DNA of 64,000 bases from Patescibacteria group bacterium (lineage in GTDB: Bacteria; Patescibacteriota; UBA1384; 2-12-FULL-50-11): contig BOKZ01000001.1 of assembly GCA_016861245.1 (NCBI GenBank), positions 13,107 through 77,106 of the forward strand. Direction: 5' to 3'. Below, piece by piece: positions 8,515-59,200 of this stretch (its first letter is position 1; every line of letters begins with the position of its first letter). The translations under genes and the position numbers were made by a program. Below the pieces are notes generated by a model. That model was not told the origin of the DNA. It searched no databases and worked only from the letters and a program-made list of their open reading frames with translations.

Positions 8515-9472
8515 CCTCAGGCCAGTATCCCAGATAGGTTAGTCGAACATCAAGCGTGTTAGATCCGTTACTGAGAGTTCTCGAAACTTGTTCGATAAAA
8601 CTCCTTATCGCCGAACCATTAACGTCTTTTTTTCGTTGGATTGTGAGAATATTTGGGTTTTTCAGTGAGTATCTAACGCCGTCCGGCGGCTTCGGTAAGC
8701 GCAAGTCTCTGCGCTCAAATAGAGGAATGTCAGAGATGAAATTCGAAAATGTCACTCCTCGGTTTGCGTTAACTACCGATCGAAGCTGCTTAAGACGTTG
8801 AAATATCTCATATTGAGATAATTGAGCAAGCTGTAACCGTGCGGTTAGAATGATCGGCTGGAAACCTGCCTCAGAGGTAAAAATGCGCTGATACGGCGTA
8901 TCGGGTAGTTCGGTAATCGGTACGGTCATCGTTTTACCGCCGTCAGTGTCAGGAATAAATACCACAATTTCCTTTAGGCATTGGTTACGAAGCGTCTTGC
9001 CGTCGTACGCGGCGTTAGTTGCTAGCGCACCGCCTATTGAGCCTGGAATTGCTGTTAGAAATTCGATCCCACCGTACGAGCGGTTCGCCGCCGACATTAC
9101 CAACGTCGAGTTACTAACACCGCTATCAACGACAACTTGTCGCGACTCCTCCGCAAAAAATATCGAGTCGGCTTGGTTACTGATAATCAGTCCTGGAAAT
9201 CCGACGTCGCTCGGCAAGCAAGCCGTAGCGCCGGCAACCACTTGGTACGGCATTTTTAGTTCGATCGCCAACTTTGCAACGTCGACGAGTTGCTGGCTGG
9301 TAGTAGTTGTCACAAAATACTCAACCACTCCCCCGATTCCGATTGGCAGTAGTTCTGCTAACGAGCGGTTCACCGCCACGTGCTGATCGCCGACGATCTC
9401 AGAAAATCGCCGCCGATGCTCAGCTGTCGCTAGTGAGTTTGTCGTAAATTTTGTAGACATCCCCAGCTCCAA
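8477..9472 (-). CDS. Divergent MurB-like protein (UDP-N-acetylenolpyruvoylglucosamine reductase family)
   Basis: IPGSIGGALATNAAYDGK resembles the MurB IPGTVGGA..NAGAYG motif, but the GGGSN FAD-binding motif is absent. Sits at the murB/ddl position of the dcw cluster. A canonical murB is at 41957-42892. Confidence 0.55.
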   Translation of the reverse strand: MELGMSTKFTTNSLATAEHRRRFSEIVGDQHVAVNRSLAELLPIGIGGVVEYFVTTTTSQQLVDVAKLAIELKMPYQVVAGATACLPSDVGFPGLIISNQADSIFFAEESRQVVVDSGVSNSTLVMSAANRSYGGIEFLTAIPGSIGGALATNAAYDGKTLRNQCLKEIVVFIPDTDGGKTMTVPITELPDTPYQRIFTSEAGFQPIILTARLQLAQLSQYEIFQRLKQLRSVVNANRGVTFSNFISDIPLFERRDLRLPKPPDGVRYSLKNPNILTIQRKKDVNGSAIRSFIEQVSRTLSNGSNTLDVRLTYLGYWPEDDEKHSTNAESL

Positions 9473-24956: not shown

Positions 24957-25607
24957 ATGCGTCGCGCTGGATATTCGTTGATAGAACTTTTAGTCGTCAT
25001 CGCTATATTAGGCATATTAGCCGGAATTGGAACATACACCTTCGGCGCTGCTGGCGCCAAATCGCGAGACAACACCCGCAAAACCGATCTCGCCCGGATC
25101 AGCAACGCACTGCAACAATACTACGTCGATAACCGACAGTATCCGAATTTCGATTATGTCTACGGCGGCAGTGCCGGCACCAGGATGTACAGCGCTGTTT
25201 GGCAACTTAGCGCGAGCGCTCAGGCCGGTTCGTGCCAGCACACCAATTCTGATTTAGCCCGACGTCTAACGCCGACATACCTCGAGAAAATACCAGAGGA
25301 CATGCGCCAATCCGTCAACTTTCGAACCCATCCTTGTGACGTTGAATTTCTCGAAAGCCAAACTGATCGCTATTACTACTTAAGCGGCCCGTCTGAGACA
25401 ACGGGGCCGAAACGGCCAGCGACTGCCTTTGCATTGATGGCACACCTCGAGCGTCCGACTACAGCCGATCAAATCTTACCCCAAGACAATCCGCTCGTTA
25501 TCGGTAACCGAACATTTCTTGGTGCGTACTACACTGCTGTCGACAACTACGGCGGCGATATCGCCGCAGACGTTAATTACTTAGTTACTGGCCGACTTGG
25601 TCGATAG
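24957..25607 (+). CDS. Type IV pilin-like / pseudopilin protein
   Basis: MRRAGYSLIELLVVIAILGILAGIG prepilin N-terminus (G-Y-S-L-I-E plus hydrophobic helix). Confidence 0.7.
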   Translation: MRRAGYSLIELLVVIAILGILAGIGTYTFGAAGAKSRDNTRKTDLARISNALQQYYVDNRQYPNFDYVYGGSAGTRMYSAVWQLSASAQAGSCQHTNSDLARRLTPTYLEKIPEDMRQSVNFRTHPCDVEFLESQTDRYYYLSGPSETTGPKRPATAFALMAHLERPTTADQILPQDNPLVIGNRTFLGAYYTAVDNYGGDIAADVNYLVTGRLGR

Positions 25608-25914: not shown

Positions 25915-25928
25915 TTAAACTCTTTATC

Positions 25929-26045
25929 TTGGCGTCGGCCTACTTTCCCGAGGGCTGTTAGCCCTGAGTATCATCGGCGCTGGCAGGCTTAACTTCTCTG
26001 TTCGAAATGGGAAGAGGTGTACCCCTGTCGCTCGAGACACCAAGA
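25929..26045 (-). rRNA. rrf: 5S ribosomal RNA
   Basis: The reverse complement reads CTTGGTGTC...CACCTCTTCCCATTTCGAACAGAGAAGTTAAGCCTGCCAGCGCCGATGATACTCAGGG...GACGCCAAG, which matches the 5S consensus helices. Confidence 0.75.
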
Positions 26046-26130
26046 TAAAAAGTTCAAACGCTTAACTTCAATTACAAATCTGATTATAACGTGCTCGGAT
26101 AGAGTGGCGAGCGAGCTCGCCGAGGTAGGT

Positions 26131-26373
26131 CTAGTAGCGCTGAGGGGTGATCGAACCCTCGGCAATACATTTCTCCGATGAGAACAGTCGCTTACAGCGA
26201 TAGACCTTGTACTGACCATCGGTGAGTGAGTGTGCAGAGATTAATGCGTCAACATGACCGCCGGCGAGTTTGATCGCATCGGCATCGTTTTTCGCGTCGA
26301 ATTCCGGGCTGTTCACCCGCTTGGATTTGTGTTGGTTGTCTGATGCTGAGCATTTCACGATATACTTCGCCAT
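26131..26373 (-). CDS. Hypothetical 80-aa protein encoded in the 23S-5S spacer
   Basis: ATG preceded by GGAGGTGAGCA. Same strand as the rRNAs. No recognisable family. Confidence 0.45.
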   Translation of the reverse strand: MAKYIVKCSASDNQHKSKRVNSPEFDAKNDADAIKLAGGHVDALISAHSLTDGQYKVYRCKRLFSSEKCIAEGSITPQRY

Positions 26374-26489
26374 TGCTCACCTCCATCCGAGAACGTTATA
26401 TTGTTGTGGTTTCCAAACCAAAGTCGAAGACAATTCAGGCGACGTTCCTTCTTTCCTGCGTAGAAATTACGCGCAGAAAAGAAGTAGTA

Positions 26490-29775
<3,286 letters not shown>

Positions 29776-31507: not shown

Positions 31508-32683
31508 ATGAAGAAAGTTACGCAATCCGTCGCGGCAATTCTTATTGCCCTGCTCGTCGTCGGCTGCGGAGGCAACGGTGCTGGTACCGGAAGCGGTTCC
31601 AACACCAACGTCGCCTTTCGCGACGTCCCCCTCACCATTACCCAGATCAACGCCCTCAAGGCCGGCGATCGCGCGTTCGCCATGGTCGAACGTGAGAGCG
31701 GGATCGTCTTCGTTCCGATCACGCTCGGCAACCGCTACACAGCGGGCGCCAACGACTACCTGACCTTCAAGGACTCAGACGCCAAGTTCGGCTTCGGCGA
31801 TTCGGGATCTCCGATCCTGACGCCAGACGGCCACACTATCGGAGCCCTCTCCGGCTCCTACGGTGGGGACAACGTCCTCATCACGCCGATAGACAAGATG
31901 CTCAACGCAGTCGGCCGTCAAGCCAGCGCTTCGAACCAGTCCTTCCAGACGAAGTTGGCATGGTTCGGTGTTGGGGTGTCGGATCGCGCAATCAACGAGT
32001 TCAAGGAGAGCAACATCCACTTCATCGACGCTGGTCCGACCAGTCAAGCTCATGCAGCCACTCGTGGCGGACCGGGTTTTGAGCTGATCGCCGGCAGATC
32101 AATGGCAGTTGTGCCGTTCGACGGCCCGCTAGTGAAGATGTTCGCGATCGGAACACTGACGCACGATCCCAACAAGAACGAATCGCTTGGCTTTGGTCAT
32201 CCGCTCAACTGGGACGGCTCACCGTTCAACGGTATGCCGGTTTCACCAGCCCGCGTGGTTGCCTTCGTCAGAGATCCGTTCTGGGGTAGCTTCAAGTTGG
32301 CAGTCCCGGCTGGGGAATTTCAGGGCGGTATCGCTCAAGATCGGAACACGGGCATCCTCGTCGAGCGAACTCGCGAAACGCAGTGGATCAACCTCGTCGT
32401 CAACGCCAATGGGCGCTCGACAACTCACCGTGTTTGTCGTCTCGACGACATGAACTTCCAATCGCTATTCGTAGCCAACGGGCTCGATAGTGTGGCACAG
32501 TTGATGTTCGACAGCGGCAACCCGGGATGGCACGAGACCAACATCACACTGACCTTCGCCAACAACGAGACGATGACGCTCGAACCCGGTTTCTACAACT
32601 GGGCGTTCGCCGGCTACGACGTTTGGTCGGCGATCGCGGACCACTGGCTCCACACCGTCAGGGTCGAGATCACCATCAACTAG
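31508..32683 (+). CDS. Hypothetical lipoprotein with GDSGSP serine-peptidase-like motif
   Basis: Lipobox LLVVGCGG. FGFGDSGSPIL resembles the S1 peptidase active-site Ser motif. GC about 60%. Confidence 0.45.
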   Translation: MKKVTQSVAAILIALLVVGCGGNGAGTGSGSNTNVAFRDVPLTITQINALKAGDRAFAMVERESGIVFVPITLGNRYTAGANDYLTFKDSDAKFGFGDSGSPILTPDGHTIGALSGSYGGDNVLITPIDKMLNAVGRQASASNQSFQTKLAWFGVGVSDRAINEFKESNIHFIDAGPTSQAHAATRGGPGFELIAGRSMAVVPFDGPLVKMFAIGTLTHDPNKNESLGFGHPLNWDGSPFNGMPVSPARVVAFVRDPFWGSFKLAVPAGEFQGGIAQDRNTGILVERTRETQWINLVVNANGRSTTHRVCRLDDMNFQSLFVANGLDSVAQLMFDSGNPGWHETNITLTFANNETMTLEPGFYNWAFAGYDVWSAIADHWLHTVRVEITIN

Positions 32684-32763: not shown

Positions 32764-33627
32764 ATGCCAGAACTACCAGAGGTTGAAACAATCCGAGCTG
32801 GTTTAAAAAGGATGCTAATCGGACATCGAATTTGTTCGATAAATGTTCGGGACAAAAAACTATTCATTGGCGATCCTGAAACCATTAAAAATCAAGCTGT
32901 TATCGAGATCGCGCGGCGCGCCAAAATTCTTATTATTAGGCTTGAACGCTCATACCTACTTATCCACTTAAAAATGACTGGGCAGCTGATATTTGTTCCT
33001 AACGGCGCTACCGAACAAGATATGGTAGTCGGCGGTCACCCAGACCCGGCGTACTCGTTTTCCCTACCACATAAACACACACACGTAATTTTTGAATTAG
33101 ATCACGGCAAACTTTATTTCAACGATCTCCGTAAGTTCGGTTGGATCAAAGTGGTGGAATCTGCCGAACAAATTGAGCCGCACGTTCATACGCTAGGACC
33201 AGAGTACAACTGGCCTGAGTTTTCACTTGAGTATTTTACGAAAAAACTGGCTCGCAAAAAAGCAATCACCGTCAAACAATTACTTCTAGATCAAACGATC
33301 GTGGCTGGGATCGGAAATATATACGCCGACGAAACGCTATTCTTATCGAAAGTTCATCCCCAAACGAAAGTAAATGAATTAAAACCGAACGAAATCCAAA
33401 TAATTTTCAAAAATATCCCAACAATATTTAACAAAGCCCTAAAACACGGCGGCACCAGCAGCCAACACTACCGACAAGCAGACGGCAAAATGGGAACCTA
33501 CCTAGCCGTCGCCAACGTTTATAAAAGAGAAGGGATGCCTTGCACCGTCTGTGGTACACCGATCGAACGGATTAAAATCGCCGGCCGATCAAGTCATTTT
33601 TGCCCGAGCTGTCAAAAAAAGCGCTAG
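32764..33627 (+). CDS. mutM: Formamidopyrimidine-DNA glycosylase
   Basis: Canonical MPELPEVE N-terminus (catalytic Pro2), H2TH domain, C-terminal zinc finger CTVCGTPI..CPSCQKK. The track ORF starts 79 codons upstream within the preceding GC-rich gene. Confidence 0.88.
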   Translation: MPELPEVETIRAGLKRMLIGHRICSINVRDKKLFIGDPETIKNQAVIEIARRAKILIIRLERSYLLIHLKMTGQLIFVPNGATEQDMVVGGHPDPAYSFSLPHKHTHVIFELDHGKLYFNDLRKFGWIKVVESAEQIEPHVHTLGPEYNWPEFSLEYFTKKLARKKAITVKQLLLDQTIVAGIGNIYADETLFLSKVHPQTKVNELKPNEIQIIFKNIPTIFNKALKHGGTSSQHYRQADGKMGTYLAVANVYKREGMPCTVCGTPIERIKIAGRSSHFCPSCQKKR

Positions 33628-33634
33628 GCGATGC

Positions 33635-34516
33635 CTAGCGCAACTGAACGGAAAGCGCACGGAGCTTCGTCGAAGCGTCGCGAACGGCGTAGATATCTGC
33701 CTCATGACCAGCGCACCGAGATTTAACGCTCCCGGCGAATAGATGGGTGCCGTCGCAGAGAAAACTCAGCGCGCCAAGCAGATCTTGCGCCCGGTGCAGC
33801 AGCATTCGTTCTCGAAACTGCTCAACACCGAGTTGCTTAACCCAGCCGATCGATTGAGACTTTCTTGGAAGCAAAGCTCGCGCTGGCCAGTAGAGCCAGT
33901 GTGGCAACCCGACGGTGTTTGCCTGTAGAATTTCCATCAGCAAATCATCGTTTGGCAGTGAGAGCTCTTTACTGAACTTGCCGAGTTCCCCAGGAAAGTC
34001 GCACTCGATGTTGATCTGTAGCATCGAGCTATCCCCGGGCCAGATCTCAACCCCCCATCGCTCTTGCCTTTTTTGAGGGTAAATCCAGTCACAAAGACCG
34101 GTAACCGTGCGGTGTGAAACTTTCTCGGATTTTACAACCGCTGCTCCTCGCAGCCGTTCGTAATAGAATAGCGCTCCGCCGCAAAACGGCGGCCAACCAT
34201 TGGCTTCAATCACGAGGTTATTAAACCCCATCCAGCGCAGAAATCCGATATGCTCGAACACGTGGAGCTGCTTGGTAAAGCTCATCTCCAACACGATCCG
34301 GCGTTTTTTCGTCGTCGCCATGACGCTAGTAATCGGCACAAGTCGGCCGCAATCTAGCCAATACCAGCCCGGGTTATCGAGCGGTCCCGGATGAAAGGTA
34401 ATGCTTGACGGCAAGCCGAACAAGTTTCGACCCTTGATGGTTACTGAATGAGTCAGCGTGAGATTGTTCATTCCACTCCTATTAATGTGCTCAGGCATTC
34501 TAGCGAGAACTAACAA
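33635..34516 (-). CDS. LpxC-like (UDP-3-O-acyl-GlcNAc deacetylase family) protein, probably catalytically divergent
   Basis: Aligns by eye to E. coli LpxC along its length (TLTHSVTIKG..ITFHPGP vs TLKRIVQATG..LTLRPAP, FEHIGFL..NLVIEANG vs VEHLNAAL..NIVIEVNA). The GLHTG His and the HKxxD zinc ligands appear replaced. Confidence 0.5.
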   Translation of the reverse strand: MLVLARMPEHINRSGMNNLTLTHSVTIKGRNLFGLPSSITFHPGPLDNPGWYWLDCGRLVPITSVMATTKKRRIVLEMSFTKQLHVFEHIGFLRWMGFNNLVIEANGWPPFCGGALFYYERLRGAAVVKSEKVSHRTVTGLCDWIYPQKRQERWGVEIWPGDSSMLQINIECDFPGELGKFSKELSLPNDDLLMEILQANTVGLPHWLYWPARALLPRKSQSIGWVKQLGVEQFRERMLLHRAQDLLGALSFLCDGTHLFAGSVKSRCAGHEADIYAVRDASTKLRALSVQLR

Positions 34517-34603: not shown

Positions 34604-35053
34604 ATGCTCCTTTGCATCTTGAGATTCTTTCAGAACTTGTTCGCCGCAGTACCCCAACAAGCGGCGCAGTCAGTTAATCACAGCGACATCCTTGTGCGCG
34701 AACTGACTCGAACCGACAAACTCGGGCAACACCTGTGCGGCGCCTGCCACGCGCTCATCAATATGCGCACCGAGCTCGAACAGCGAGGCAGGGGGTTAAG
34801 AGGCCAAGACGCGGTCATCCTCTTCAATTTCCTGAAACTGATTGACGCGCAGCTGACAAGGCTCTACTCAATCTTAAGTTCGGGCTGTCGCGAAATTAGC
34901 TTCAGCGAGCAGGCCGAGATCAGAGCAATACTGAACGACTACCGCCTCGTTTACGCGGCATCGGAGGTCAAGCCTCCCAACGACGACCATCTCTGGTATG
35001 TTCGTGAACTGCAAGATCTCACAAACGTGCCAGACCAGACCCACCGCCCGTAA
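34604..35053 (+). CDS. Hypothetical protein
   Basis: 149-aa ORF followed by a GC hairpin terminator (CCGCCCGTAAGGGCGG plus TTTCTTTT). Confidence 0.35.
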   Translation: MLLCILRFFQNLFAAVPQQAAQSVNHSDILVRELTRTDKLGQHLCGACHALINMRTELEQRGRGLRGQDAVILFNFLKLIDAQLTRLYSILSSGCREISFSEQAEIRAILNDYRLVYAASEVKPPNDDHLWYVRELQDLTNVPDQTHRP

Positions 35054-35135: not shown

Positions 35136-36104
35136 ATGACCATGACAAATTCCGTGCCTGTTGTTAAATATAAACCGCTTTCAGAGCGGGTCGCCGACAC
35201 TCAGTTTCAAGATCTGGTAAGAAGGATCCTTTTCGCCGACCGTTGGAACATGCCCGTACAAGGCGTGGCCAGCTGTCAGATCGCTGGCGCCGAACTCCGG
35301 TTCAACATGTCGAACGGTTTTCCTTTGATGACCGAGCGCGACATGATTTGTCCGATTCCCCGAAAGGGAAAGGAAGACTGGCCATCGATCTTTTCACAGT
35401 CAATCGCTGAAATGGTCGCATTCGTTAACGGCGCCCGAACTCAAGATGAGTACGAGGCTCACGGATGTTTCTGGTGGCGACGCTGGCTCACAAAAGCCAA
35501 ATGCGAATACAACCACCTGGAAGAGGGCGACAACGGCGTCGGCTCGTACGGCGCGGTGCTAACCAACTTCCCGACGCATCAAGGCGAGCCGCACAACGGC
35601 AAGCCGTTCGACCAAATTGATGCGGTGTTCGAAGAGATGAAGCGCTACCCTGGATACCGAACACACGTGATCACGACTTGGTGCCCGCCGTATACTTACG
35701 CCGGAGACAACCGCAAAGTCGTTGTCGCGCCGTGCCACGGTACGGTCGTTCAGTTTCAGCTAGACGAAGAGCGCAAAGAGCTCACACTCGTTCACGTTCA
35801 GCGTAGCTGCGACATCTTAGTTGGTGGAATCGGCAACATTTGCCAGTACGCCGCCATCTTCGGTCTCGCAGCCGCCAAGATACTGGGCTACACCTTCGTG
35901 GAATACATCCACTACATGGTTCAACCCCACATCTACGAGAACCAACTCGAGGGGACGAAAGAAGTGCTTGGTCGAAGTCCTAGAGCGTTCCCTACGGTTA
36001 CGCTAGTGGGCGAAATCGCCAGCATCAAAGATCTCAGACCCGAGCACTTTGTTGTTGAAGAATACGACCCCCACCCCTACTTCAACATCCCAACCCCTAT
36101 CTAG
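35136..36104 (+). CDS. thyA: Thymidylate synthase
   Basis: LRFNMSNGFPLMTERD, active-site APCHGTVVQF, QRSCDILVG and EYDPHP motifs match ThyA. Confidence 0.88.
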   Translation: MTMTNSVPVVKYKPLSERVADTQFQDLVRRILFADRWNMPVQGVASCQIAGAELRFNMSNGFPLMTERDMICPIPRKGKEDWPSIFSQSIAEMVAFVNGARTQDEYEAHGCFWWRRWLTKAKCEYNHLEEGDNGVGSYGAVLTNFPTHQGEPHNGKPFDQIDAVFEEMKRYPGYRTHVITTWCPPYTYAGDNRKVVVAPCHGTVVQFQLDEERKELTLVHVQRSCDILVGGIGNICQYAAIFGLAAAKILGYTFVEYIHYMVQPHIYENQLEGTKEVLGRSPRAFPTVTLVGEIASIKDLRPEHFVVEEYDPHPYFNIPTPI

Positions 36105-36111
36105 GAGAACT

Positions 36112-36639
36112 ATGAGCGCAACAATTATCGTCGCTACTGACCGCAACTGGCTGATCGGAGATCGGCCAGACGGTCAACTTATCGGCCGGACACCTTGGCA
36201 AGGCCAACTGCCGGCGGATATGGAATATTTCATGGATCAAACAATGGGAAAGGTTGTGGCGATGACCCGACCGACTTACCTGACGATTCCAAAGAAGTTC
36301 CGTCCGCTTCGTGGCCGAACCAACGTTGTCCTCACAACCCGTCACGACTTCACAGAAGACGGCTGTGTCGTTGTCAACTCAACGGAACAACTATTTCGCG
36401 AATTCGGAGCGAAAGAATTGATGATTGCTGGCGGAGGCATGCTCTACGAGCAGTCGCTTCATAACGAACAGGTTGACCGAGTTCTACGAACGAAGGTCAA
36501 TGCCGAATTCGAAGGCAACATCTACTTTCCAGAGCTCCTTATTACGGAGTGGGAGTTGATTCGATCAGTTCCGTTTCAAGCTGACAAGCTTAACAGCTAC
36601 GACTACATCTTCGAGACGTATGTCAGAATCCAAATCTAG
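36112..36639 (+). CDS. folA: Dihydrofolate reductase
   Basis: IVATDRNWLIGDRPDGQLIGRTPW..LPADMEYF DHFR signature. AGGAGA SD 4 nt before the ATG, immediately after the thyA stop. Confidence 0.85.
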   Translation: MSATIIVATDRNWLIGDRPDGQLIGRTPWQGQLPADMEYFMDQTMGKVVAMTRPTYLTIPKKFRPLRGRTNVVLTTRHDFTEDGCVVVNSTEQLFREFGAKELMIAGGGMLYEQSLHNEQVDRVLRTKVNAEFEGNIYFPELLITEWELIRSVPFQADKLNSYDYIFETYVRIQI

Positions 36640-36704
36640 CCGGCTCACGCCGGCTCTTTATTTACAACAAAGCTATCTACAACTAATGTTAGCCCAATAG
36701 TAGT

Positions 36705-37226
36705 ATGGCAATAAGTAAAATGAATACTCACGAAAATATCGACAAACCTAAGATAGTTGATCCAAGGAATGCTCGCAATCCCGAGTACCAGCAACAACTA
36801 TTAGAAATTGAAAAATCTGGAAAATGCCCATTCTGCCCAGGTGGACAAACGTTTATAGATGAATCCGATATGTTTATTACTGACAATGAGCAATGGTTAG
36901 TTAAACAGAGTAAAGCTCCGTACGCTAACAGCGCCGTTCACTTAGTTTGTATTCTACGTACACACAAAATTAGACTGGGAGAAATGACTGAAGCCGAGTG
37001 GACAAGCCTAATGCCTTTAATTGAGCAGGCGCTACTTAAGCTGAACATCAACAACGACGGTGGCAGTCTTTTTGTTCGCGAAGGTGCGACCGAATTAACT
37101 GGTGCCACCGTTTGCCATCTGCATTTCAATTATGTTATTCCCGAATCATCAGAAAACGATACCAAAATTGTAACTGTACGTTTCGGAGGCTGGAACGGAG
37201 CTCCTGAATGGGAGAGACCAAACTAA
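36705..37226 (+). CDS. HIT-superfamily-like protein
   Basis: CPFCPGG motif and C-terminal CHLHFNYV histidine-triad-like motif. The third His is not conserved. Confidence 0.5.
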   Translation: MAISKMNTHENIDKPKIVDPRNARNPEYQQQLLEIEKSGKCPFCPGGQTFIDESDMFITDNEQWLVKQSKAPYANSAVHLVCILRTHKIRLGEMTEAEWTSLMPLIEQALLKLNINNDGGSLFVREGATELTGATVCHLHFNYVIPESSENDTKIVTVRFGGWNGAPEWERPN

Positions 37227-37248
37227 AACCTAATTTATAATTGCAATT

Positions 37249-38073
37249 TTACTGCACTAAAATTACTTCAACCCCAAACGCCTTTAACTCCCGCTCGCCG
37301 TCTAACGACGAGTAGCCAGAGCTGTAATAGCATTTTTTTATGCCGCTGTTAGCAATAAGCTGCGCGCAATCCGGACACGGAAAAGTTGTAACGTAGATAC
37401 TGGCACCATCCAGCGAAATTCCCTCTTTTGCTGCCTCAACTATTACAGCTTGTTCGGCATGAAGTGTGGTTCTGAGTTCTGTATTAACTCCTAACGGCAA
37501 GAAATTTCGCGGATCTCCGTCGATATATGGAGAATGAGCAGTTGGTTGACGTTGGTTGAACGACTGCAATATCTTTGTTCCATTCTTTACTACTACTGCA
37601 CCAACTTGCCGATACCAATCAGAGCTACGGTTCGCTTCATGCTCGGCTGATCTTATCATCTCTTGGTCAAATTTCTTCTTGGATATTGTCCGATCCGGCG
37701 AAACTTCGTTTACCGTTTGCACATTTTTTGTGTCCCAGCGCAAAAACGGACTAACTTTTTTAACCTTCTTGAATGAGTACGTCTTTATCAGCTGGTCAGA
37801 GATATCTTCGTCAGCCATTAATAGATCGTCCGTGGTTAGCCCCCTAATTTGTTTCTTATTAACAAGTACCACTTCTTTAAACAATGCCGTGGAATCAATA
37901 ATTTGTTTTATTAACGCTGGTTTAACCGCTCGAACTTCTCTAGCGAGTTCAGGAAAGTCGTTGATAATGTCTAAATCAATAATTGCCAAACGATCGACGG
38001 TCGACGCAACTTTATCAAATAAACTTATATAGCCCTGATGAAGCACTGGAATATAGAGCAACAACGTTTTCAC
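37249..38073 (-). CDS. dCMP deaminase (cytidine/deoxycytidylate deaminase family) with N-terminal extension
   Basis: Zinc-binding HAEQAVIVEA..PCPDCAQLI motifs in the C-terminal half. About 120 aa of unrecognised N-terminal sequence. Confidence 0.8.
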   Translation of the reverse strand: MKTLLLYIPVLHQGYISLFDKVASTVDRLAIIDLDIINDFPELAREVRAVKPALIKQIIDSTALFKEVVLVNKKQIRGLTTDDLLMADEDISDQLIKTYSFKKVKKVSPFLRWDTKNVQTVNEVSPDRTISKKKFDQEMIRSAEHEANRSSDWYRQVGAVVVKNGTKILQSFNQRQPTAHSPYIDGDPRNFLPLGVNTELRTTLHAEQAVIVEAAKEGISLDGASIYVTTFPCPDCAQLIANSGIKKCYYSSGYSSLDGERELKAFGVEVILVQ

Positions 38074-38627
38074 TCTAACTCAGCCAACGCTTCTAGGGTT
38101 TTCTTTGCTTTTTCAACAAAATCGAGCGTCATTAAACGGATTTTGGCAGAAGTCGAAGTTTCGGCCTGACTCGGCAGTACAACTACCTTTATTCCATGTT
38201 TTTCAATTTCTTTAATTTGCTTTGGTGAGTAGCTTCTTTCAGTTGCTACTAGGATGTCCGGCTTAAAAACATTAATTAACCCATCTTGATAATACTCATC
38301 AGCGATCGTAACGTAGTCGACGTGGCGCAAATGTGCGAGTGTTTCGATCCGCTCTTGCTCGGGAACGATTGGACGTCGAGGCCCTTTGCGGCTTTGCACC
38401 CATTTGTCACTGTCAACAGCGACGATCAATACGTCTCCTTGTTGTTTTGCTTTTTCGATATATCTTGCGTGACCAATATGAAGTAAATCGTACGTTCCAA
38501 GTACTAATACAACTTTCAAATTAAGCTTCTTGAGCGCATCTGTAATCTCACCAAGTTTCTCGTGTTTTTTAATAAACTTCTTATCGAAATTTGCACCGGG
38601 TCCAAAGACATCGCTAAGGTTTGCCAT
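38070..38627 (-). CDS. Cytidylyltransferase-like nucleotidyltransferase (HldE domain II / TagD family)
   Basis: GTYDLLHIGH HxGH motif. LIVAVDSDKWVQSRKGPRRPIVPEQERIETLAHLRHVDYV matches RfaE/HldE domain II (LIVAVNSD..KGDSRPVNPLEQR). Overlaps the dCMP deaminase stop by 4 nt. Confidence 0.65.
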   Translation of the reverse strand: MANLSDVFGPGANFDKKFIKKHEKLGEITDALKKLNLKVVLVLGTYDLLHIGHARYIEKAKQQGDVLIVAVDSDKWVQSRKGPRRPIVPEQERIETLAHLRHVDYVTIADEYYQDGLINVFKPDILVATERSYSPKQIKEIEKHGIKVVVLPSQAETSTSAKIRLMTLDFVEKAKKTLEALAELE

Positions 38628-38690
38628 CTTGGTTGTATCCTAATCGAATCTTTAACTTCGTCAAGAAAATTTGCGGGTGACCCGCAATGT

Positions 38691-39494
38691 TTATGCTATG
38701 AGACGCTCGTATTCACTTGCTTGTTTCAACAGCTCGTCATTAGTAAACCGCCGCTTGAGGATCGGTTGCCAGCTGCCGTCCGTGATCGACAGATCCCAGG
38801 GACAAACTGTACGCCACCAACGTACGCCTTCATGAATAGTCCCAGAAATTGGGTCGCGTCTGGAGAAGTGAATTATTTGGCAGTTGTGGATTTTTGTCGC
38901 TTCGTCGTTGGCTTCTTTCCATCTACAAAACTCCTCAACGGTCCAATGTAATCGTCTAATCATCCCAGCTTCAATTAGCGTTTCGTGCGCTACGATAATA
39001 ACCCGATGATCGTGATGTCGGTCAGATAACGAGTGCATTATCCGATCCCACCGCAGCCCCGCATCAAGGCGGGTTTCGCCGTTAGGTGGTCGCCAATAGA
39101 ACTCCTGCATTGCTCTTCGCGCTAGATTATCGCCAAACTTCTTGTCTTTTTGAGCTTGGGTCATCCCGTCTAGATCACCATGATCACGTTCGATCAAATA
39201 CGGGTCGATTTCCCATTCGGCTCCAGGCAATCCAAGATATCCGGCGGTTTCTCTGGCCCTAACATAGGCAGAAACCAAGCAATGATCGAACTGGCCGTGA
39301 ATGTTCTCTAGTATCCAGTTGCCAGCAGATTTTGCCTGTTTGACTCCGAGATCGGTTAATCGCCATGTTGAGTTATGCCGGTTGCGATGTTCGGGAGTTA
39401 GTAGGCTCGGATCACCGTTTCGGTCTCGTTTATTAGCAATATTGCCTTCGGACTCGCCGTGACGTACTAACACTAAGTCAATTGGTAGTGGCAT
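38691..39494 (-). CDS. Histidine phosphatase family protein (phosphoglycerate mutase-like)
   Basis: LVLVRHGESEGN catalytic RHG motif. Confidence 0.75.
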   Translation of the reverse strand: MPLPIDLVLVRHGESEGNIANKRDRNGDPSLLTPEHRNRHNSTWRLTDLGVKQAKSAGNWILENIHGQFDHCLVSAYVRARETAGYLGLPGAEWEIDPYLIERDHGDLDGMTQAQKDKKFGDNLARRAMQEFYWRPPNGETRLDAGLRWDRIMHSLSDRHHDHRVIIVAHETLIEAGMIRRLHWTVEEFCRWKEANDEATKIHNCQIIHFSRRDPISGTIHEGVRWWRTVCPWDLSITDGSWQPILKRRFTNDELLKQASEYERLIA

Positions 39495-39580
39495 TAAGCC
39501 TAATGTATGTTTGAGTCAAAAAAGGATCAAGTCTAAAAAAATTGAGTAAAATTACCCACCATCAGGTGGGTATTTATCAG

Positions 39581-39653
39581 TGGACCGTTGGGGATTCGAA
39601 CCCCACACCTCCGCAGTGCAAATGCGGCGCTCTACCAAATGAGCTAACGGCCC
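39581..39653 (-). tRNA. tRNA-Ala (anticodon TGC)
   Basis: Cloverleaf GGGCCGT/ACGGTCC acceptor, anticodon loop TTTGCAC, T-loop GGTTCGAATCC. No encoded CCA. Confidence 0.85.
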
Positions 39654-41956: not shown

Positions 41957-42892
41957 TCAAGTGTCAAACCCGAGAAATTCCGGCTCAGTCTCGAGCGTTA
42001 TCCCAAATTTATCGTGTACTTGTTTTTTAATCTCGAGCACCAACTGGTGTATATCCTCTCCACTGGCGTTACCGCGGTTAACGATGTAATTACAGTGTTT
42101 TTCTGAAACTTGCGCTCCCCCAACTTGGTAGCCTTTCAGCCCCGCGTCTTGAATAATCTTGCCCGTCGGGACTACTGGAAACGGATCGATTTTTACAAAG
42201 TCTTTGAATAATTCCATCGTTGCTGTTGGGATCGTCTGGATCGGAACATTCTTGAACATCGACCCAGCGTTAGGATATTCGAGTGGGTGTCTGGTTTTAC
42301 GAAACTCGATATGTTCGTCAGCGATCGATCGTAGTTGTTCAGTGTTACCAGAACTCAACAATAACTCTGCGTTAAGAATCACCCATACCGGATGACGTTT
42401 AAAGTAACTTTCCCGATACTCAAACTCGCACGCGGGGTTATCGAAAATCTTTATCTCGCCAGTTGCAGTAGAGAACGCTGTTACGAATTGGATAGTATCC
42501 TTAATTTCACCCTTAAATGCGCCGGCGTTACCGCGAATCGCTCCGCCAAACGTTCCGGGCAGTCCTCCCGCCCATTCCAGGCCAACTAACCCAGCCGTAA
42601 CTGCCGTGTCAACTAAATCGTACATCTGGCTTCCAGAACCAGCGCGGATAACCCTGCCGTCTACTTCAATTGAGTTGAAATCGATGTGAATAACAAGCCC
42701 ATCGAAACCAGCTGTCGAGGCAATCACGTTACTCCCGGCGCCAAGAACAAAGATCGGGCAGTTTTTAGAATTGGCAAAATCACGCGCCGAACGCAACTCT
42801 TCGATCGTTTCGACATTACAGAAATATCTTGCCGGACCACCCACTTTAAACGTTGTGTAGTTAGCAAGTGAGACGTTCTCCTGAATATTCAT
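41957..42892 (-). CDS. murB: UDP-N-acetylenolpyruvoylglucosamine reductase
   Basis: LANYTTFKVGGPARYF, FVLGAGSNV and GLPGTFGGAIRGNAGAFG motifs match the MurB FAD-binding domain. Confidence 0.85.
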   Translation of the reverse strand: MNIQENVSLANYTTFKVGGPARYFCNVETIEELRSARDFANSKNCPIFVLGAGSNVIASTAGFDGLVIHIDFNSIEVDGRVIRAGSGSQMYDLVDTAVTAGLVGLEWAGGLPGTFGGAIRGNAGAFKGEIKDTIQFVTAFSTATGEIKIFDNPACEFEYRESYFKRHPVWVILNAELLLSSGNTEQLRSIADEHIEFRKTRHPLEYPNAGSMFKNVPIQTIPTATMELFKDFVKIDPFPVVPTGKIIQDAGLKGYQVGGAQVSEKHCNYIVNRGNASGEDIHQLVLEIKKQVHDKFGITLETEPEFLGFDT

Positions 42893-45270: not shown

Positions 45271-46718
<1,448 letters not shown>

Positions 46719-47161
46719 CATAAAAATTCCTGTAGGGATTTTTATGAGAGTTTGTCTTCGCACTCTTCAGAAGAATTGTGCTCAGATCAAACTCTTACCT
46801 TTTGGTAAGAAATTTGTGTCCGACGGCCGAAACCGTCTTCGTCAAACTCTTTGAGATTTAACTCACATAAAAGCCTACTGAACCTTACGAGCGAAATGAT
46901 AAATCATTTCAGCTGACATACTGTTTTGTTTTTTTGGAATTGTTTGGCACTCTCTCGTTTTACCGAGAAAGGGATGGAAATTTGCCAGTCCATCGGCTGG
47001 TTTGTTCTTGTAACCGCGAAATGTTCGCGATTACGCTCCTTTGTTCCCGTGGTAGGTAAAACAAAGGTCCCGCTTGTTAAAGCAGCAAAGTACGTCTGTA
47101 ATTGTACCTATTAGGTTTCCTTGCGTCAACGGCTGCGCAGCGGGTAGGCTAGAAGAAGATT

Positions 47162-56153: not shown

Positions 56154-56230
56154 GTATAACGATTTAACAGAGAAAAAGGAACCCTCTGAAGAGTTGATTT
56201 CCTTCTGTTATTTTGGCATTTTAAATATAC

Positions 56231-59200
56231 ATGGAGGGGAAAACTTTTCATCGCCTTGATGGAGTCTATCGATTGGTAGCGGATCCTGTTATCCGCCAAC
56301 GGGTTGGACGTGCCGGATTATTTACGACGGTACTACTGGTAGTTTTTGGGCTGGTTACTTCGGCTGCACTGCCACAATTTACGCTTGGTGAAACCGGCTC
56401 CGCTTCGGCCAACCGCTTATGGTCCAGCGGCGCCGAGCTTAATACAACAACAGCTAATGTGGAAATAACAAGCACTTCCGGTACAGTGTCGATTAATAGT
56501 TCAACCAAGCGTTCGGGTGACTATTCGTTTCGTGCTAATCCGACATCAAGTACCGGTATTTTTACAAAGATATTTGCTAACTCAAACCAGTCGAATAAAT
56601 TTTGGTTTCGAACGTACGTCCGTATCGCTGATGACCCAAGCGCCGATACATATATCGTTCGTATTGGTAATAGCGGCGGCGGCAAGATAAGCGTTCGGCT
56701 AACAACTACGAGTACGCTCCAGCTACGCAACGAGGAAGATAATACCAATATTGGCTCCGCTTCTTCTGCTCTTTCGGTTAATACTTGGTACCGTGTTGAA
56801 GTTTACGTTGACACAACGACACTTTCTTCGACCGATGCCGAACTACGGCTCGACGGTACGTCTATCTCCTCTTCAACAGCAGAAAACCTAGCTTCCGGTA
56901 TTGATCGTCTAACTTGGGGCTCAACTGCAACCGGCACAACAGATCTGTACTTTGACGATATCGCGATCAACGACTCGACCGGGCGGGCCGTAGATAACTG
57001 GCCGGGTGAAGGTCGTATTGTCCATATGCACCCGAACGCTGACGGCAGCAACACCGCCTGGATCGGCGATCCGAGCGATACCAACGATTACGACGATGTT
57101 GACGAAGTTACGCCTAACGACGATACAGATTTTATTCGCTCTCAAACCAACAACCAACTCGACGACAATAATCTAGAAGCTGCAACGAGTGCCGGTATCG
57201 GCGCTAACGACGCCATTAAGCTTGTCTCAGTGGGAGTTCGTATTCGTCCGTGTGGAAACGCCTCAGGCGGTGGACCTGCCTGCCCTCCAGCAGAAATTGA
57301 TATTAACTGGGAGGCACGTATTACTGGTGGGGGTAACACCGAACAAAGCGGTTCGATCGCTATCTCCGATGCGAGCGGCTGGATAACAAACGACGATGAT
57401 TCGGCAAAATTGAACAAAATCACACTTTACGATCTGCCTGGTGCTAGTACAGCGCCGTGGACAGTTGCAGAACTCGATTCAGCTCAAATCGGTGTTGCTA
57501 ACCGTGATTCCAGCGGTACCGGTTTTCGAGTCAGTACGACGTGGCTACAAGTCGAATACGTCGACCGCAGCGGCGGGAGGCTTATTTCAAGCGGATTTGA
57601 GCTGAACTCGGCAACAGCCGGAATGGAAGTTTCGGCAGTTACCAACACTCCAGCTATTAACAGCACCACATTCAGAAGCGGCGCCTACGCACTTCAAACT
57701 GAAAACGGCGGCGGTCAAGAATACGCTCGCTTTTACTTTGAATCAGCCAACACCAACGGCGACTATTACTTACGAGCGTATCTAAACATCGCCACTTCCT
57801 TTAACAACTCAACCGCAACAGTTCTGTCGCTGCTTGATACTAGTAACTTACGGCGAGCCTACCTGAAGCTTACGACCACAAATACGCTCGAATTATGGGA
57901 CGAAGACGGCCAGATCGGCTCCGCTTCATCGGCGCTCAGCACTAGTACTTGGTACCGGATCGAGCTTCGTCTTAACACCGTCCCTAGTGGTGGCTCGCAT
58001 GTTGTTGATGGGCGTATCGACGGCGTATCGTTTGCTAGTAGTAGTACTCGAAACGTCGGTACCGGTGTAGCCAGGATCGGTCTTGGCGTAAACGCTAGCG
58101 ACAATATGGAAGCAAGCGCCAATACCCAAGGCAGTTTAATTTGGGACGATATTGCCTTAAATAAAGGTATCGGCGCCACACAAAACACCTGGCCAGGCGC
58201 GGGTTCGATTATCCATTTACGACCAGACGCCGTCGGTGTTTCGACTAGTTGGACACAAAACGGGTCGTGTGCGGTGAGTAACTTCGGTTGTGTATTAGAA
58301 GTGACCCCGAATGACGGAACAAACTATGTTTCCGAGACTACTTCTGATGATGTTGACGATTATAATATCGACAACTCACCCCTATCTGGTTCGGATGTAG
58401 TCAACCTAGTTTCAGTTGGGGTACGATTCCGAACCAGTTCGGCCACCCAGGAGGATTTCAGAGTTCGCCTAAGAGAAGCTTCGACTGGTATAGCTATCGA
58501 AAGTAATACTCTCTCGCCAGCCTCTACAACTTGGACGACTAATGCCACTGCCGATCCAAAACTCTACCCACTCACGGCATATACTCGACCAGAACTCCCA
58601 ACTATTTGGACTGATACCCAGCTCGACACTGCACAGATAGGTATTCGCGATGTATTAAGCAGCTCCGGAACTGTACAGGTAACAGCAATGTGGCTACTCG
58701 TTGATTACAGCCCCCCAGCAACGATCGTTATTTCTGGCACCTGCGACCAGTATAACCGCACAACCGATTGTACCGACGACGGCTCGAATCAAATACGAGT
58801 AGCTGTTAACGGATCGCTACAAGCGCAAGTTGATACCACTGTTGACGGTGCCTGGGCGATCTCCGGCGTAACCCAACCATCAAGCGGCGATATTATTACC
58901 GTCTTTATTGACGGCAACGCCGATACGAATGAAGCGGTGGCCGTAACTAAATACGACGGTACGGGAGATATCAGCGGGATTGTTCTTTACCAACGACATT
59001 TGACGCTTGGCTCGGACGACAACCCAACGTTAAGTAACGCAGACATCGATGCCTACGATAACTCGGTGTCGGGCGACGAAGATATCTTTTTTGATGTCGA
59101 CGCCAACGACGACTTAACCGTTGATGCAGTAAGTACCTACACAGACGAGTATTTGTATGTGAAATCTGGAACAACGTACCGACCGGGTTCTGGTGGTAGT

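What the first reader, a model, noticed from the sequence alone, without database searches (positions are those of the whole stretch)
33635..34516. LpxC-fold protein that appears to lack the zinc-binding residues
The 293-aa product can be aligned by eye with E. coli LpxC across both domains, but the HKxxD zinc-ligand motif and the GLHTG His are not recognisable. LpxC is the committed step of lipid A synthesis. In a lineage with a Gram-positive-like envelope it would have no canonical substrate. A catalytically altered LpxC-fold protein here could be a repurposed deacetylase, such as a peptidoglycan or polysaccharide deacetylase, or a pseudoenzyme.
Basis: partly seen in the sequence, partly recalled or inferred. 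Interest (0 to 1): 0.6.

Follow-up and report, generated by a model that had tools for sequence, protein, structure and literature searches.

The report
Orphan LpxC-like deacetylase in CPR bacterium

Summary
The ORF is real, but the protein is 278 aa, not 293 (ATG at 34471 behind an AGGAG ribosome-binding site). Alone it hits no LpxC model. Its family profile matches LpxC over the full length (hhalign 98.3% to E. coli LpxC), and a confident AlphaFold model (pLDDT 95.6) matches only LpxC structures (TM ~0.75, 14-18% identity).

The zinc ligands (H74, H226, D230 = E. coli H79, H238, D242), the general base E73 and the general acid H256 are present and 138-139/140 conserved across a clade of >=207 clusters at 50% identity. 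HKxxD is simply HRxxD. Only the GLHTG histidine is missing (Phe/Trp).

What differs is the periphery: D246->Ala, K262->Cys, and acyl-tunnel positions tentatively mapped to Arg/His/Trp. Every member with a taxonomic assignment is from CPR. No lpxA/B/D, fabZ or bamA was found in the window or the 16 related loci held, and Pfam listings of 11 neighbourhoods show no lipid A or outer-membrane genes. dN/dS is 0.07-0.11. Members fall far below NCBI's LpxC equivalog cut-off.

Best reading: an active metal-dependent LpxC-superfamily deacetylase, orphaned from the lipid A pathway and re-specified, probably to a phosphorylated or nucleotide-linked N-acetyl sugar. It is a new variant of a known kind. The substrate is unknown.

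The parts
33635..34471 (-). Coding sequence of the LpxC-like protein (278 aa plus TAG stop). Predicted to be soluble and cytoplasmic.
   Evidence: ORF. The start is set by homolog lengths and N-termini and by the RBS. AF2 pLDDT is 95.6. The fold is LpxC. hhalign to E. coli LpxC gives 98.3%. dN/dS is 0.07-0.11. There is no hydrophobic segment.
34472..34516 (-). It is probably 5' UTR and not protein.
   Evidence: None of the homologs has these residues. The RBS lies inside this stretch.
34476..34480 (-). Shine-Dalgarno AGGAG, 4 nt before the ATG at 34469-34471.
   Evidence: Sequence read directly.
34250..34255 (-). Codons E73-H74 = E. coli E78 (general base) and H79 (zinc ligand).
   Evidence: hhalign mapping. 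E in 138/140 and H in 139/140. Coordinates.
33782..33796 (-). Codons H226-R227-A-Q-D230 = E. coli H238 (Zn), K239 (diphosphate/6-OH contact) and D242 (Zn). This is the 'HKxxD' motif in the form HRxxD.
   Evidence: H 139, R 138 and D 139 of 140. Coordinates.
33695..33709 (-). Codons G255-H256-E-A-D259 = E. coli G264-H265 (general acid), plus the clade-specific invariant Asp (GHxxD).
   Evidence: H 139/140 and D259 138/140. Coordinates.
33902..33916 (-). Codons T186-V-G-L-P190 = E. coli T191 (oxyanion), F192, G193, F194 and M195. The Thr is kept here. The F194 position is mostly aromatic in the clade.
   Evidence: hhalign confidence is high in this stretch. T63/S33 of 140 at T186, and W81/Y20/F6 at position 189.
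34298..34303 (-). Codons R57-R58, a clade-typical Arg-Arg pair at the tip of the Insert I hairpin. They map tentatively to E. coli L62 and C63 (acyl tunnel / glucosamine contact).
   Evidence: R in 93 and 97 of 140. The hairpin is strands 52-55 and 58-64 in the model. hhalign confidence is low here.
34184..34195 (-). Codons W93-P-P-F96, the clade signature 'WPPY' that replaces the canonical LpxC 'IPIMDGS' segment. P95 is invariant.
   Evidence: P95 in 140/140, Y/F in 128/140 and W in 93/140.
33842..33844 (-). Codon W210, invariant in the clade, with no counterpart in E. coli LpxC (remodelled Insert II region).
   Evidence: 140/140.
33614..33641 (-). Intrinsic terminator: a 9-bp GC-rich hairpin (GCGCTAGGC-ATC-GCCTAGCGC) followed by T7. 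It overlaps the stop codon and is shared with the convergent fpg gene (A7 on the other strand).
   Evidence: Sequence.

Best explanation
The gene encodes a catalytically competent, cytoplasmic, metal-dependent amide hydrolase of the LpxC superfamily. It belongs to a large clade that so far appears CPR-specific and has become detached from lipid A synthesis.

Chemistry (inferred from the conserved residues): a Zn2+ (or Fe2+) ion held by H74, H226 and D230 activates a water molecule. E73 acts as general base. T186 helps stabilise the tetrahedral intermediate. H256 protonates the leaving amine. This is the mechanism described for LpxC.

Substrate (inferred, not shown): not UDP-3-O-acyl-GlcNAc. 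The diphosphate/6-OH contact (K239 -> invariant Arg) and the aromatic sugar platform (F194 -> Trp/Tyr/Phe) are kept. Positions that line the acyl-chain tunnel in LpxC are mostly Arg, His or Trp, and an Arg-Arg pair sits on the Insert I hairpin. I therefore think it removes the N-acetyl group from a phosphorylated or nucleotide-linked N-acetyl-hexosamine that carries no long acyl chain. Candidates are UDP-GlcNAc or a relative, GlcNAc-phosphate, or a cytoplasmic wall precursor.

Origin (inferred): it may be a survivor of an ancestral lipid A pathway, retained and re-specified after the outer membrane was lost.
For: Shown:
- LpxC homology and fold, with a model at pLDDT 95.6.
- All five core catalytic residues are 138-139/140 conserved in a family whose members are only ~23-45% identical to the window protein.
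- Purifying selection on this copy: dN/dS 0.07-0.11, like the neighbouring thyA, folA and fpg.
- Intact expression signals: RBS and terminator.
- The clade is large and discrete. 207 clusters at 50% identity score E<=1e-30. Clade members score 147-446 bits against the clade profile, while E. coli LpxC scores 39 bits against the same profile. Clade members score 28-54 bits against PF03331, where E. coli LpxC scores 370. Against the TIGR00325 equivalog they score 13-33 bits, with a cut-off of 187.
- Every member with a taxonomic assignment is from CPR.
- No lipid A or outer-membrane gene appears among the window ORFs scanned (nearly all of those >=150 aa), in 11 distinct neighbourhoods, or by tblastn of E. 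coli BamA, Skp, LpxD, FabZ, LpxA and LpxB against 298 kb.
- No signal peptide or TM segment.

From the literature:
- LpxC residue roles (PMC13342928).
- CPR lack lpxC, kdsA and fatty-acid synthesis (PMC5220378; PMC9938205), so the acyl-ACP-dependent LpxA step has no obvious source.
- CPR sit in a monoderm clade, and the bacterial ancestor is inferred to have been a diderm with LPS.

Inferred: the pocket remodelling, from the residue mapping.
Against: - No biochemical data exist, and the substrate proposal rests on sequence mapping alone.
- hhalign confidence is low in the Insert I and Insert II regions, so the L62->Arg, F212->His and G210->Trp equivalences are tentative.
- I could not inspect model coordinates, so neither the metal-site geometry nor the loss of the tunnel is verified.
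- The window protein's own sub-branch lacks the clade's 'GWPH' loop through a 4-residue deletion, so clade-level inferences may not fully apply to it.
- D246, the partner of the general-acid His in E. coli LpxC, is Ala in 98/140, which could lower activity unless the clade-specific D259 compensates.
- The whole source genome could not be scanned for lpxA, lpxD and lpxB.
- No conserved gene neighbour points to a pathway.
- The annotation tables of the cultivated Saccharibacterium S. epibionticum contain no LpxC entry, so the clade is not universal in CPR.
Confidence: 0.6

Rival explanations
1. It is a genuine but fast-evolving LpxC. It deacetylates UDP-3-O-acyl-GlcNAc in a cryptic lipid A-like pathway whose other genes lie elsewhere in the genome or are unrecognisably divergent, or it works on acylated precursors taken from a Gram-negative host.
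For: The full catalytic machinery is kept, together with the K239-equivalent Arg and the Thr in the window protein. NCBI has auto-named one member (MBZ9577595.1) UDP-3-O-acyl-N-acetylglucosamine deacetylase. Only 64 kb of a genome of roughly 0.68 Mb was visible; close cluster members sit on contigs of 670-685 kb.
Against: No lpxA/B/D, fabZ or bamA in 298 kb of window and clade loci or in 11 neighbourhoods. Scores lie far below the LpxC equivalog cut-off. Tunnel positions are mostly charged or aromatic, and H19, D246 and K262 are replaced. CPR are reported to lack fatty-acid and LPS synthesis.
Confidence: 0.1
2. It is a pseudoenzyme or pure binding protein that has lost metal binding.
For: The single sequence is too divergent for any LpxC model to detect it. 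H19 and D246 are lost.
Against: The three metal ligands and both acid/base residues are 138-139/140 conserved in a family at ~23-45% identity to the window protein. That pattern is expected only if catalysis is under selection. dN/dS is 0.07-0.11.
Confidence: 0.03
3. It is an extracytoplasmic peptidoglycan or polysaccharide de-N-acetylase acting on the assembled wall.
For: The lineage depends on a peptidoglycan wall: the window holds a full dcw/mur cluster, penicillin-binding proteins and an L,D-transpeptidase. One relative sits after mreC and PBP2.
Against: There is no signal peptide, lipobox or TM segment, and LpxC is cytoplasmic. Wall deacetylation is normally done by CE4/NodB enzymes, and a cultivated Saccharibacterium has one. 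The mreC/PBP2 adjacency is seen in only 1 of 11 contexts.
Confidence: 0.05
4. It is a decaying remnant or a recent horizontal acquisition with no current function.
For: Orphan lpx genes regarded as vestigial are known in monoderm Bacillota (PMC11448272).
Against: The clade has hundreds of sequence clusters across Parcubacteria, Saccharibacteria and other CPR. The reading frame is intact with no internal stops, selection is strongly purifying, and the catalytic residues are conserved.
Confidence: 0.03

Closest known systems
LpxC, UDP-3-O-acyl-N-acetylglucosamine deacetylase (Pfam PF03331; NCBIfam TIGR00325; structures such as 4MDT and 1P42)
   Same: The same two-domain fold (Foldseek TM ~0.75). 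The same zinc ligands, general base and general acid. The Lys239 position is a conservative Arg. Thr191 is kept in the window protein. Similar size, single domain and cytoplasmic.
   Different: Only 14-18% identity. The window protein is invisible to PF03331 and TIGR00325, and relatives score 28-54 and 13-33 bits where E. coli LpxC scores 370 and 544. H19->Phe/Trp, D246->Ala and K262->Cys. The 'IPIMDGS' segment is replaced by WPPY. The Insert II segment is 6 residues shorter in the window protein, with the GGS(F/L)D motif replaced (GWPH in most of the clade, deleted here). Acyl-tunnel positions map tentatively to Arg/His/Trp. No partner genes of the Raetz pathway were found.
Orphan 'lpxC2' paralogs in monoderm Bacillota (Desulfotomaculum acetoxidans, Peptococcaceae DCMF), PMC11448272
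   Same: An LpxC homolog standing alone in a bacterium without an LPS outer membrane. The authors interpret it as a remnant of a diderm ancestor with possibly new roles.
   Different: Those proteins cluster with ordinary Terrabacteria LpxCs in the authors' tree and occur in a few genomes with a syntenic lpxC2 region. The CPR clade is far more divergent, comprises hundreds of clusters, and has no conserved neighbourhood. No CPR sequence is mentioned in that study.
Functional analogues from other folds: NagA (GlcNAc-6-P deacetylase), the PIG-L/LmbE family (MshB, BshB) and CE4/NodB peptidoglycan deacetylases (own knowledge)
   Same: Metal-dependent removal of the N-acetyl group from GlcNAc-containing metabolites. 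This is the kind of reaction proposed here.
   Different: These are unrelated folds. No sequence or structural similarity was found: all 50 top structural matches are LpxC. The analogy is only about what it may work like.

Membership tests
LpxC superfamily (fold / Pfam domain PF03331) | [quoted passage not shown] | tested here: met
   The AF2 model has pLDDT 95.6 and pTM 0.93. The top 50 Foldseek PDB hits are all LpxC, with E down to 4.9e-18 and TM 0.69-0.76.
LpxC superfamily (fold / Pfam domain PF03331) | Sequence match to PF03331 above the gathering score (27 bits) | tested here: inconclusive
   The window protein gives no hit at E<=10. Eight clade relatives score 28.6-54.2 bits, just above the cut-off, where E. 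coli LpxC scores 369.6. At profile level the match is clear: hhalign 98.3%, E 2.4e-14.
LpxC superfamily (fold / Pfam domain PF03331) | Zinc ligands His79, His238 and Asp242 (E. coli numbering) | tested here: met
   H74, H226 and D230 are each conserved in 139/140. The geometry in the model could not be inspected because coordinates are not returned.
LpxC superfamily (fold / Pfam domain PF03331) | General base Glu78 and general acid His265 | tested here: met
   E73 in 138/140 and H256 in 139/140.
LpxC proper (equivalog: UDP-3-O-acyl-GlcNAc deacetylase) | Score above the NCBIfam TIGR00325 equivalog cut-off (187.25 bits) | tested here: not met
   The window protein gives no hit. Relatives score 13-33 bits. 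E. coli LpxC scores 543.9.
LpxC proper (equivalog: UDP-3-O-acyl-GlcNAc deacetylase) | Oxyanion-stabilising Thr191 | tested here: met
   T186 in the window protein. The clade has T63/S33/A23/P16 of 140, so this residue is only partly conserved.
LpxC proper (equivalog: UDP-3-O-acyl-GlcNAc deacetylase) | His19 of the GLHTG motif and Asp246, the partner of His265 | tested here: not met
   H19 -> F18 (F69/W37/L14, with no His among the seven commonest residues). D246 -> A234 (Ala in 98, Asp in only 6 of 140).
LpxC proper (equivalog: UDP-3-O-acyl-GlcNAc deacetylase) | Hydrophobic acyl-chain tunnel formed largely by Insert II (E. coli L18, L62, I198, C207, F212, V217; PMC13342928) | tested here: inconclusive
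   The mapped positions are F/Y/L, Arg (93/140), L/R, a gap, His (112/140; Lys in the window protein) and T/V/A. This suggests a polar, partly filled tunnel. hhalign confidence is low in these segments, and no coordinates were available to measure a cavity.
LpxC proper (equivalog: UDP-3-O-acyl-GlcNAc deacetylase) | Basic patch for UDP (K143, K239, K262) | tested here: inconclusive
   K239 -> Arg in 138/140. K262 -> Cys in 83/140. K143 -> Ala/Arg/Gly, and Trp in the window protein.
LpxC proper (equivalog: UDP-3-O-acyl-GlcNAc deacetylase) | Co-occurrence with the rest of the Raetz pathway (lpxA, lpxD, lpxB and others) and outer-membrane biogenesis genes | tested here: not met
   None among the window ORFs scanned with Pfam, which covers nearly all of those >=150 aa. 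None in 11 distinct neighbourhoods. tblastn with E. coli BamA, Skp, LpxD, FabZ, LpxA and LpxB against 298 kb found nothing significant. This covers only part of each genome; the whole-genome test is listed separately.
LpxC proper (equivalog: UDP-3-O-acyl-GlcNAc deacetylase) | Absence or presence of lpx genes in the complete source genome | not testable with these tools
Contigs of 670-685 kb that carry near-identical proteins exist, but only 10-kb flanks can be fetched.
LpxC proper (equivalog: UDP-3-O-acyl-GlcNAc deacetylase) | Deacetylation of UDP-3-O-(R-3-hydroxyacyl)-GlcNAc, or complementation of an lpxC mutant | not testable with these tools
   This requires biochemistry or genetics.
Bacillota 'lpxC2' orphan paralogs (PMC11448272) | Groups with the lpxC2 / Terrabacteria LpxC clade in a tree and shares the lpxC2 synteny | not tested
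That paper mentions no CPR members.

The most novel reading that the evidence does not exclude
A CPR-wide, catalytically intact descendant of LpxC survived the loss of the outer membrane and was re-specified to a non-lipid substrate. That would make it the first LpxC-fold enzyme with a function outside lipid A synthesis. It would also be a molecular fossil supporting a diderm, LPS-bearing ancestry for the CPR/Chloroflexota monoderm clade.
Probability: 0.4. Interest if true: 0.7.

Novelty: new variant of a known kind. Interest (0 to 1): 0.5.

Why it matters
LpxC is treated as a marker of lipid A synthesis and of Gram-negative envelopes, and as an antibiotic target specific to them. CPR genome papers list lpxC as absent (PMC5220378).

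If a large CPR clade of LpxC-fold enzymes is active in cells without a lipid A pathway, three things follow:
- Counting PF03331 hits as evidence of LPS is unsafe in these lineages. One member is already auto-named as LpxC in GenBank, while most are 'hypothetical'.
- The LpxC scaffold has at least one further, unknown substrate, which adds a piece to the poorly understood envelope or sugar metabolism of ultra-small symbiotic bacteria.
- The gene is a candidate relic for testing whether the CPR ancestor had an outer membrane.

Tried and rejected
- **Single-sequence searches.** Pfam, NCBIfam and PDB searches with the window protein alone gave nothing. The link to LpxC needed family profiles.
- **Nucleotide-metabolism link.** The gene lies next to thyA, folA, dCMP deaminase and dUTPase here, nrdDG in L008, and phosphoribosyltransferases plus a nucleoside phosphorylase in L010. 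I rejected this as evidence. The 4.4-kb thyA-to-His_Phos block is absent from the strain with the 95%-identical protein and is bounded by a tRNA. Further contexts show tRNA synthetases, recO, nuo genes, peptidases and the like, with no recurring partner.
- **Profile search with the word-index tool.** Using the 140-sequence alignment added only two proteins.
- **Literature.** Searches for LpxC in CPR, Patescibacteria or Saccharibacteria, for 'LpxC-like' or 'LpxC homolog', and for the MAG name DTUPAT3 found no description of this clade.
- **Essentiality data.** The Tn-seq and annotation tables for the cultivated Saccharibacterium S. epibionticum contain no LpxC or PF03331 entry, so no essentiality data could be borrowed.
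- **Direct tblastn.** E. coli LpxC does not detect the clade in a direct tblastn, which confirms how divergent it is.
Full report
**1. The observation**

An ORF of 293 aa from a TTG lies at 33635-34516 on the minus strand. The real start is almost certainly the ATG at 34471. AGGAG sits 4 nt upstream, and all homologs are 272-280 aa and begin at the equivalent Met. A 9-bp GC-rich hairpin followed by T7 overlaps the stop codon and is shared with the convergent fpg gene. The gene is therefore a compact monocistronic unit encoding 278 aa. The protein has no hydrophobic segment or signal peptide.

**2. Is it an LpxC relative?**

On its own the protein hits nothing. Pfam and NCBIfam gave no family at E<=10, and the PDB search gave only chance matches. 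Its homologs make the link:
- Four of the six first homologs carry PF03331 hits.
- A 7-sequence profile matches A. aeolicus LpxC (E 6.8e-11) and E. coli LpxC (5.7e-9) over the full length.
- A 140-sequence alignment aligns to E. coli K-12 LpxC, taken from the annotated genome, with hhalign probability 98.3%, E 2.4e-14, residues 2-276.
- AlphaFold2 with that alignment gives pLDDT 95.6 and pTM 0.93.
- The top 50 Foldseek PDB hits are all LpxC: E down to 4.9e-18, TM 0.69-0.76, 14-18% identity.

**3. Are the zinc residues missing?**

No. I used the hhalign mapping and counted residues in 140 family members. Numbering is for the 278-aa protein.

| Window residue | E. coli LpxC | Role | Conservation (of 140) |
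|---|---|---|---|
| E73 | E78 | general base | 138 |
| H74 | H79 | zinc ligand | 139 |
| H226 | H238 | zinc ligand | 139 |
| R227 | K239 | diphosphate / 6-OH contact | Arg in 138 |
| D230 | D242 | zinc ligand | 139 |
| H256 | H265 | general acid | 139 |

- The 'HKxxD' motif is present as HRAQD (window 33782-33796).
- T186 = T191 is present in the window protein, and the clade has T or S in 96/140.
- The residue roles are those summarised in PMC13342928.

**4. What really differs from LpxC**

- D246, the partner of H265, is Ala in 98/140.
- K262 is Cys in 83/140.
- The canonical 'IPIMDGS' segment is replaced by WPPY, with P95 invariant.
- W210 and D259 (GHxxD) are clade-specific and nearly invariant.
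- The segment between T191 and H238 (Insert II, which forms the acyl tunnel) is 6 residues shorter in the window protein and lacks the GGS(F/L)D motif.
- Positions mapped to tunnel residues are mostly not hydrophobic: L62->Arg 93/140, C63->Arg 97/140, F212->His 112/140 and G210->Trp 120/140.
- The sugar-platform position F194 stays aromatic in 107/140.
- Caveats: hhalign confidence is low in the two insert regions. The Arg-Arg pair does fall at the tip of the hairpin formed by strands 52-55 and 58-64 in the model, which fits Insert I. The window protein's own sub-branch (P0001-P0003) has a 4-residue deletion that removes the clade's 'GWPH' loop. I could not inspect coordinates.

**5. How big is the family, and whose is it?**

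An exhaustive profile search of 1.84 billion representatives found 207 clusters at 50% identity with E<=1e-30, 315 with E<=1e-10 and 818 with E<=1e-3. Nearly all are single-domain proteins of 260-300 aa.

The clade is well separated from canonical LpxC:
- Members score 147-446 bits on the clade profile, while E. coli LpxC scores 39 bits on the same profile.
- Members score 28.6-54.2 bits on PF03331, where E. coli scores 369.6.
- Members score 13-33 bits on the TIGR00325 equivalog (cut-off 187.25), where E. coli scores 543.9.

Every member with a taxonomic assignment is from CPR/Patescibacteria: Patescibacteria group, Ca. Saccharibacteria, Parcubacteria and Ca. Vogelbacteria. The window's nearest genome, isolate DTUPAT3 (95% identical protein), is labelled only 'bacterium'. 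Most are annotated 'hypothetical protein'. One (MBZ9577595.1) is auto-named UDP-3-O-acyl-N-acetylglucosamine deacetylase.

The window itself shows CPR hallmarks: 16S and 23S rRNA genes that are unlinked, and a 23S gene with an insertion.

**6. Is there a lipid A pathway?**

Pfam scans of nearly all the window's ORFs >=150 aa show these genes and no lpx, kds, lpt or bam genes:
- a complete dcw/mur cluster, penicillin-binding proteins, alanine racemase and an L,D-transpeptidase;
- pilin-like proteins;
- nucleotide-salvage genes.

Eleven distinct neighbourhoods of clade members contain none either.

tblastn of E. coli BamA, Skp, LpxD, FabZ, LpxA and LpxB against all 298 kb held (the window plus 16 CPR loci) found nothing significant.

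The literature reports the following:
- CPR lack lpxC, kdsA and fatty-acid synthesis (PMC5220378; PMC9938205).
- CPR sit in a monoderm clade with Chloroflexi (bioRxiv 10.1101/2021.05.31.446380).
- The bacterial ancestor is inferred to have been a diderm with LPS (bioRxiv 10.1101/2020.07.15.205187).

The complete source genome could not be scanned, so the absence is shown only for the parts examined.

**7. Is the gene functional?**

Against two close relatives dN/dS is 0.074 and 0.106. Neighbouring genes give comparable values: thyA 0.06, folA 0.07 and fpg 0.13-0.18. Together with the near-invariance of the catalytic residues in a family at ~23-45% identity to the window protein, this argues for an active enzyme and against a pseudoenzyme or a decaying relic.

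**8. Context and pathway**

No partner gene recurs. A possible link to nucleotide metabolism was rejected. The thyA-folA-dCMP-deaminase block next to the gene (35136-39580) is absent from the strain with the 95%-identical protein and is bounded by a tRNA. Other contexts are unrelated housekeeping genes.

**9. Mechanism proposed**

- Shown: the fold, the full set of catalytic residues, purifying selection, and a sequence with no export signal.
- Inferred: a Zn/Fe-bound water activated by E73 attacks an acetamide. T186 stabilises the intermediate, and H256 protonates the amine leaving group.
- Inferred with less confidence: the substrate is a phosphorylated or nucleotide-linked N-acetyl-hexosamine without the 3-O-acyl chain. 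The Arg at the K239 position and the aromatic platform are kept, while tunnel positions become Arg/His/Trp.
- Rivals are listed separately with probabilities: canonical LpxC with hidden partners or host-derived substrate (about 0.1), a wall deacetylase (0.05), a pseudoenzyme (0.03) and a functionless remnant (0.03).

**10. Comparison with what is known**

The closest family is LpxC itself. The protein belongs to the LpxC superfamily: fold and catalytic residues were tested and met. It fails tests for being LpxC proper: the equivalog score, H19 and D246, and pathway partners in the sequence examined were tested and not met, and the tunnel test was inconclusive.

The closest precedent for an orphan is the 'lpxC2' remnant in a few monoderm Bacillota (PMC11448272). 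Those proteins are ordinary-looking LpxCs. No CPR clade is described there or in any paper my searches found. The annotation and Tn-seq tables of the cultivated S. epibionticum contain no LpxC entry, so the clade is widespread but not universal in CPR.

**11. Verdict**

What remains is a real and moderately interesting object: a large, apparently CPR-specific, catalytically intact LpxC-fold clade in organisms regarded as lacking lipid A synthesis, with a remodelled substrate pocket and unknown substrate. I rate it a new variant of a known kind, with interest 0.5.

Noticed in passing
window 28044-28379 (inside the 23S rRNA gene, 26484-29743, minus strand): A ~336-nt segment of the 23S rRNA gene is absent from the otherwise 94-99% identical DTUPAT3 contig (L002). 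It accounts for the 23S match being ~335 nt longer than the Rfam model. It is probably an optional intervening sequence or intron that differs between strains.
   Followed up: partly
window 35136-39580, bounded by the tRNA at 39581-39653: A 4.4-kb block (thyA, folA, a 173-aa hypothetical, dCMP deaminase, a cytidylyltransferase-like gene and a histidine phosphatase) is replaced by ~1.16 kb in L002 (8222-9382). It looks like a strain-variable nucleotide-metabolism cassette inserted next to a tRNA gene.
   Followed up: partly
window 56225-64000 (+ strand): One open reading frame of at least 2,592 codons runs off the end of the window, so the ORF lister omits it. It is probably a giant surface protein. 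Its tail is rich in Asn/Gly/Ser/Thr repeats.
   Followed up: partly
window 45274-46725 (16S) versus 25927-29743 (5S and 23S): The rRNA genes are unlinked. About 15.5 kb of protein-coding genes, including the LpxC-like gene, lies between the 16S and the 23S-5S genes, all on the minus strand.
   Followed up: no
window 34604-35053 (+), the 149-aa hypothetical divergent from the LpxC-like gene: This ORF (89% nt identity to L006) and the LpxC-like gene (95.6%) are clearly more diverged than the flanking fpg, thyA and folA genes (98-99%). That suggests a local recombination patch or a fast-evolving gene. There is no Pfam hit, and dN/dS is 0.16-0.49.
   Followed up: partly
window 8477-9472 (-) and 41957-42892 (-): There are two MurB-like genes. 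One sits in the dcw cluster and has only the FAD-binding domain detected. The other is a full MurB (FAD_binding_4 + MurB_C) next to an L,D-transpeptidase.
   Followed up: no
window 83-652 (-) and 24957-25607 (+): Two proteins carry the N-terminal methylation (type IV pilin / T2SS pseudopilin) motif, consistent with the type IV pili typical of CPR.
   Followed up: no
window 31508-32683 (+): A 391-aa predicted lipoprotein (signal sequence ending LVVGC) with no Pfam match lies two genes away from the LpxC-like gene. The related JGI contigs L006 and L007 list only a 150-aa gene at the corresponding position.
   Followed up: no
L010/L011 1968-4358: In a related CPR contig the DnaX (DNA polymerase III gamma/tau) gene carries an intein with a LAGLIDADG endonuclease domain.
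   Followed up: no
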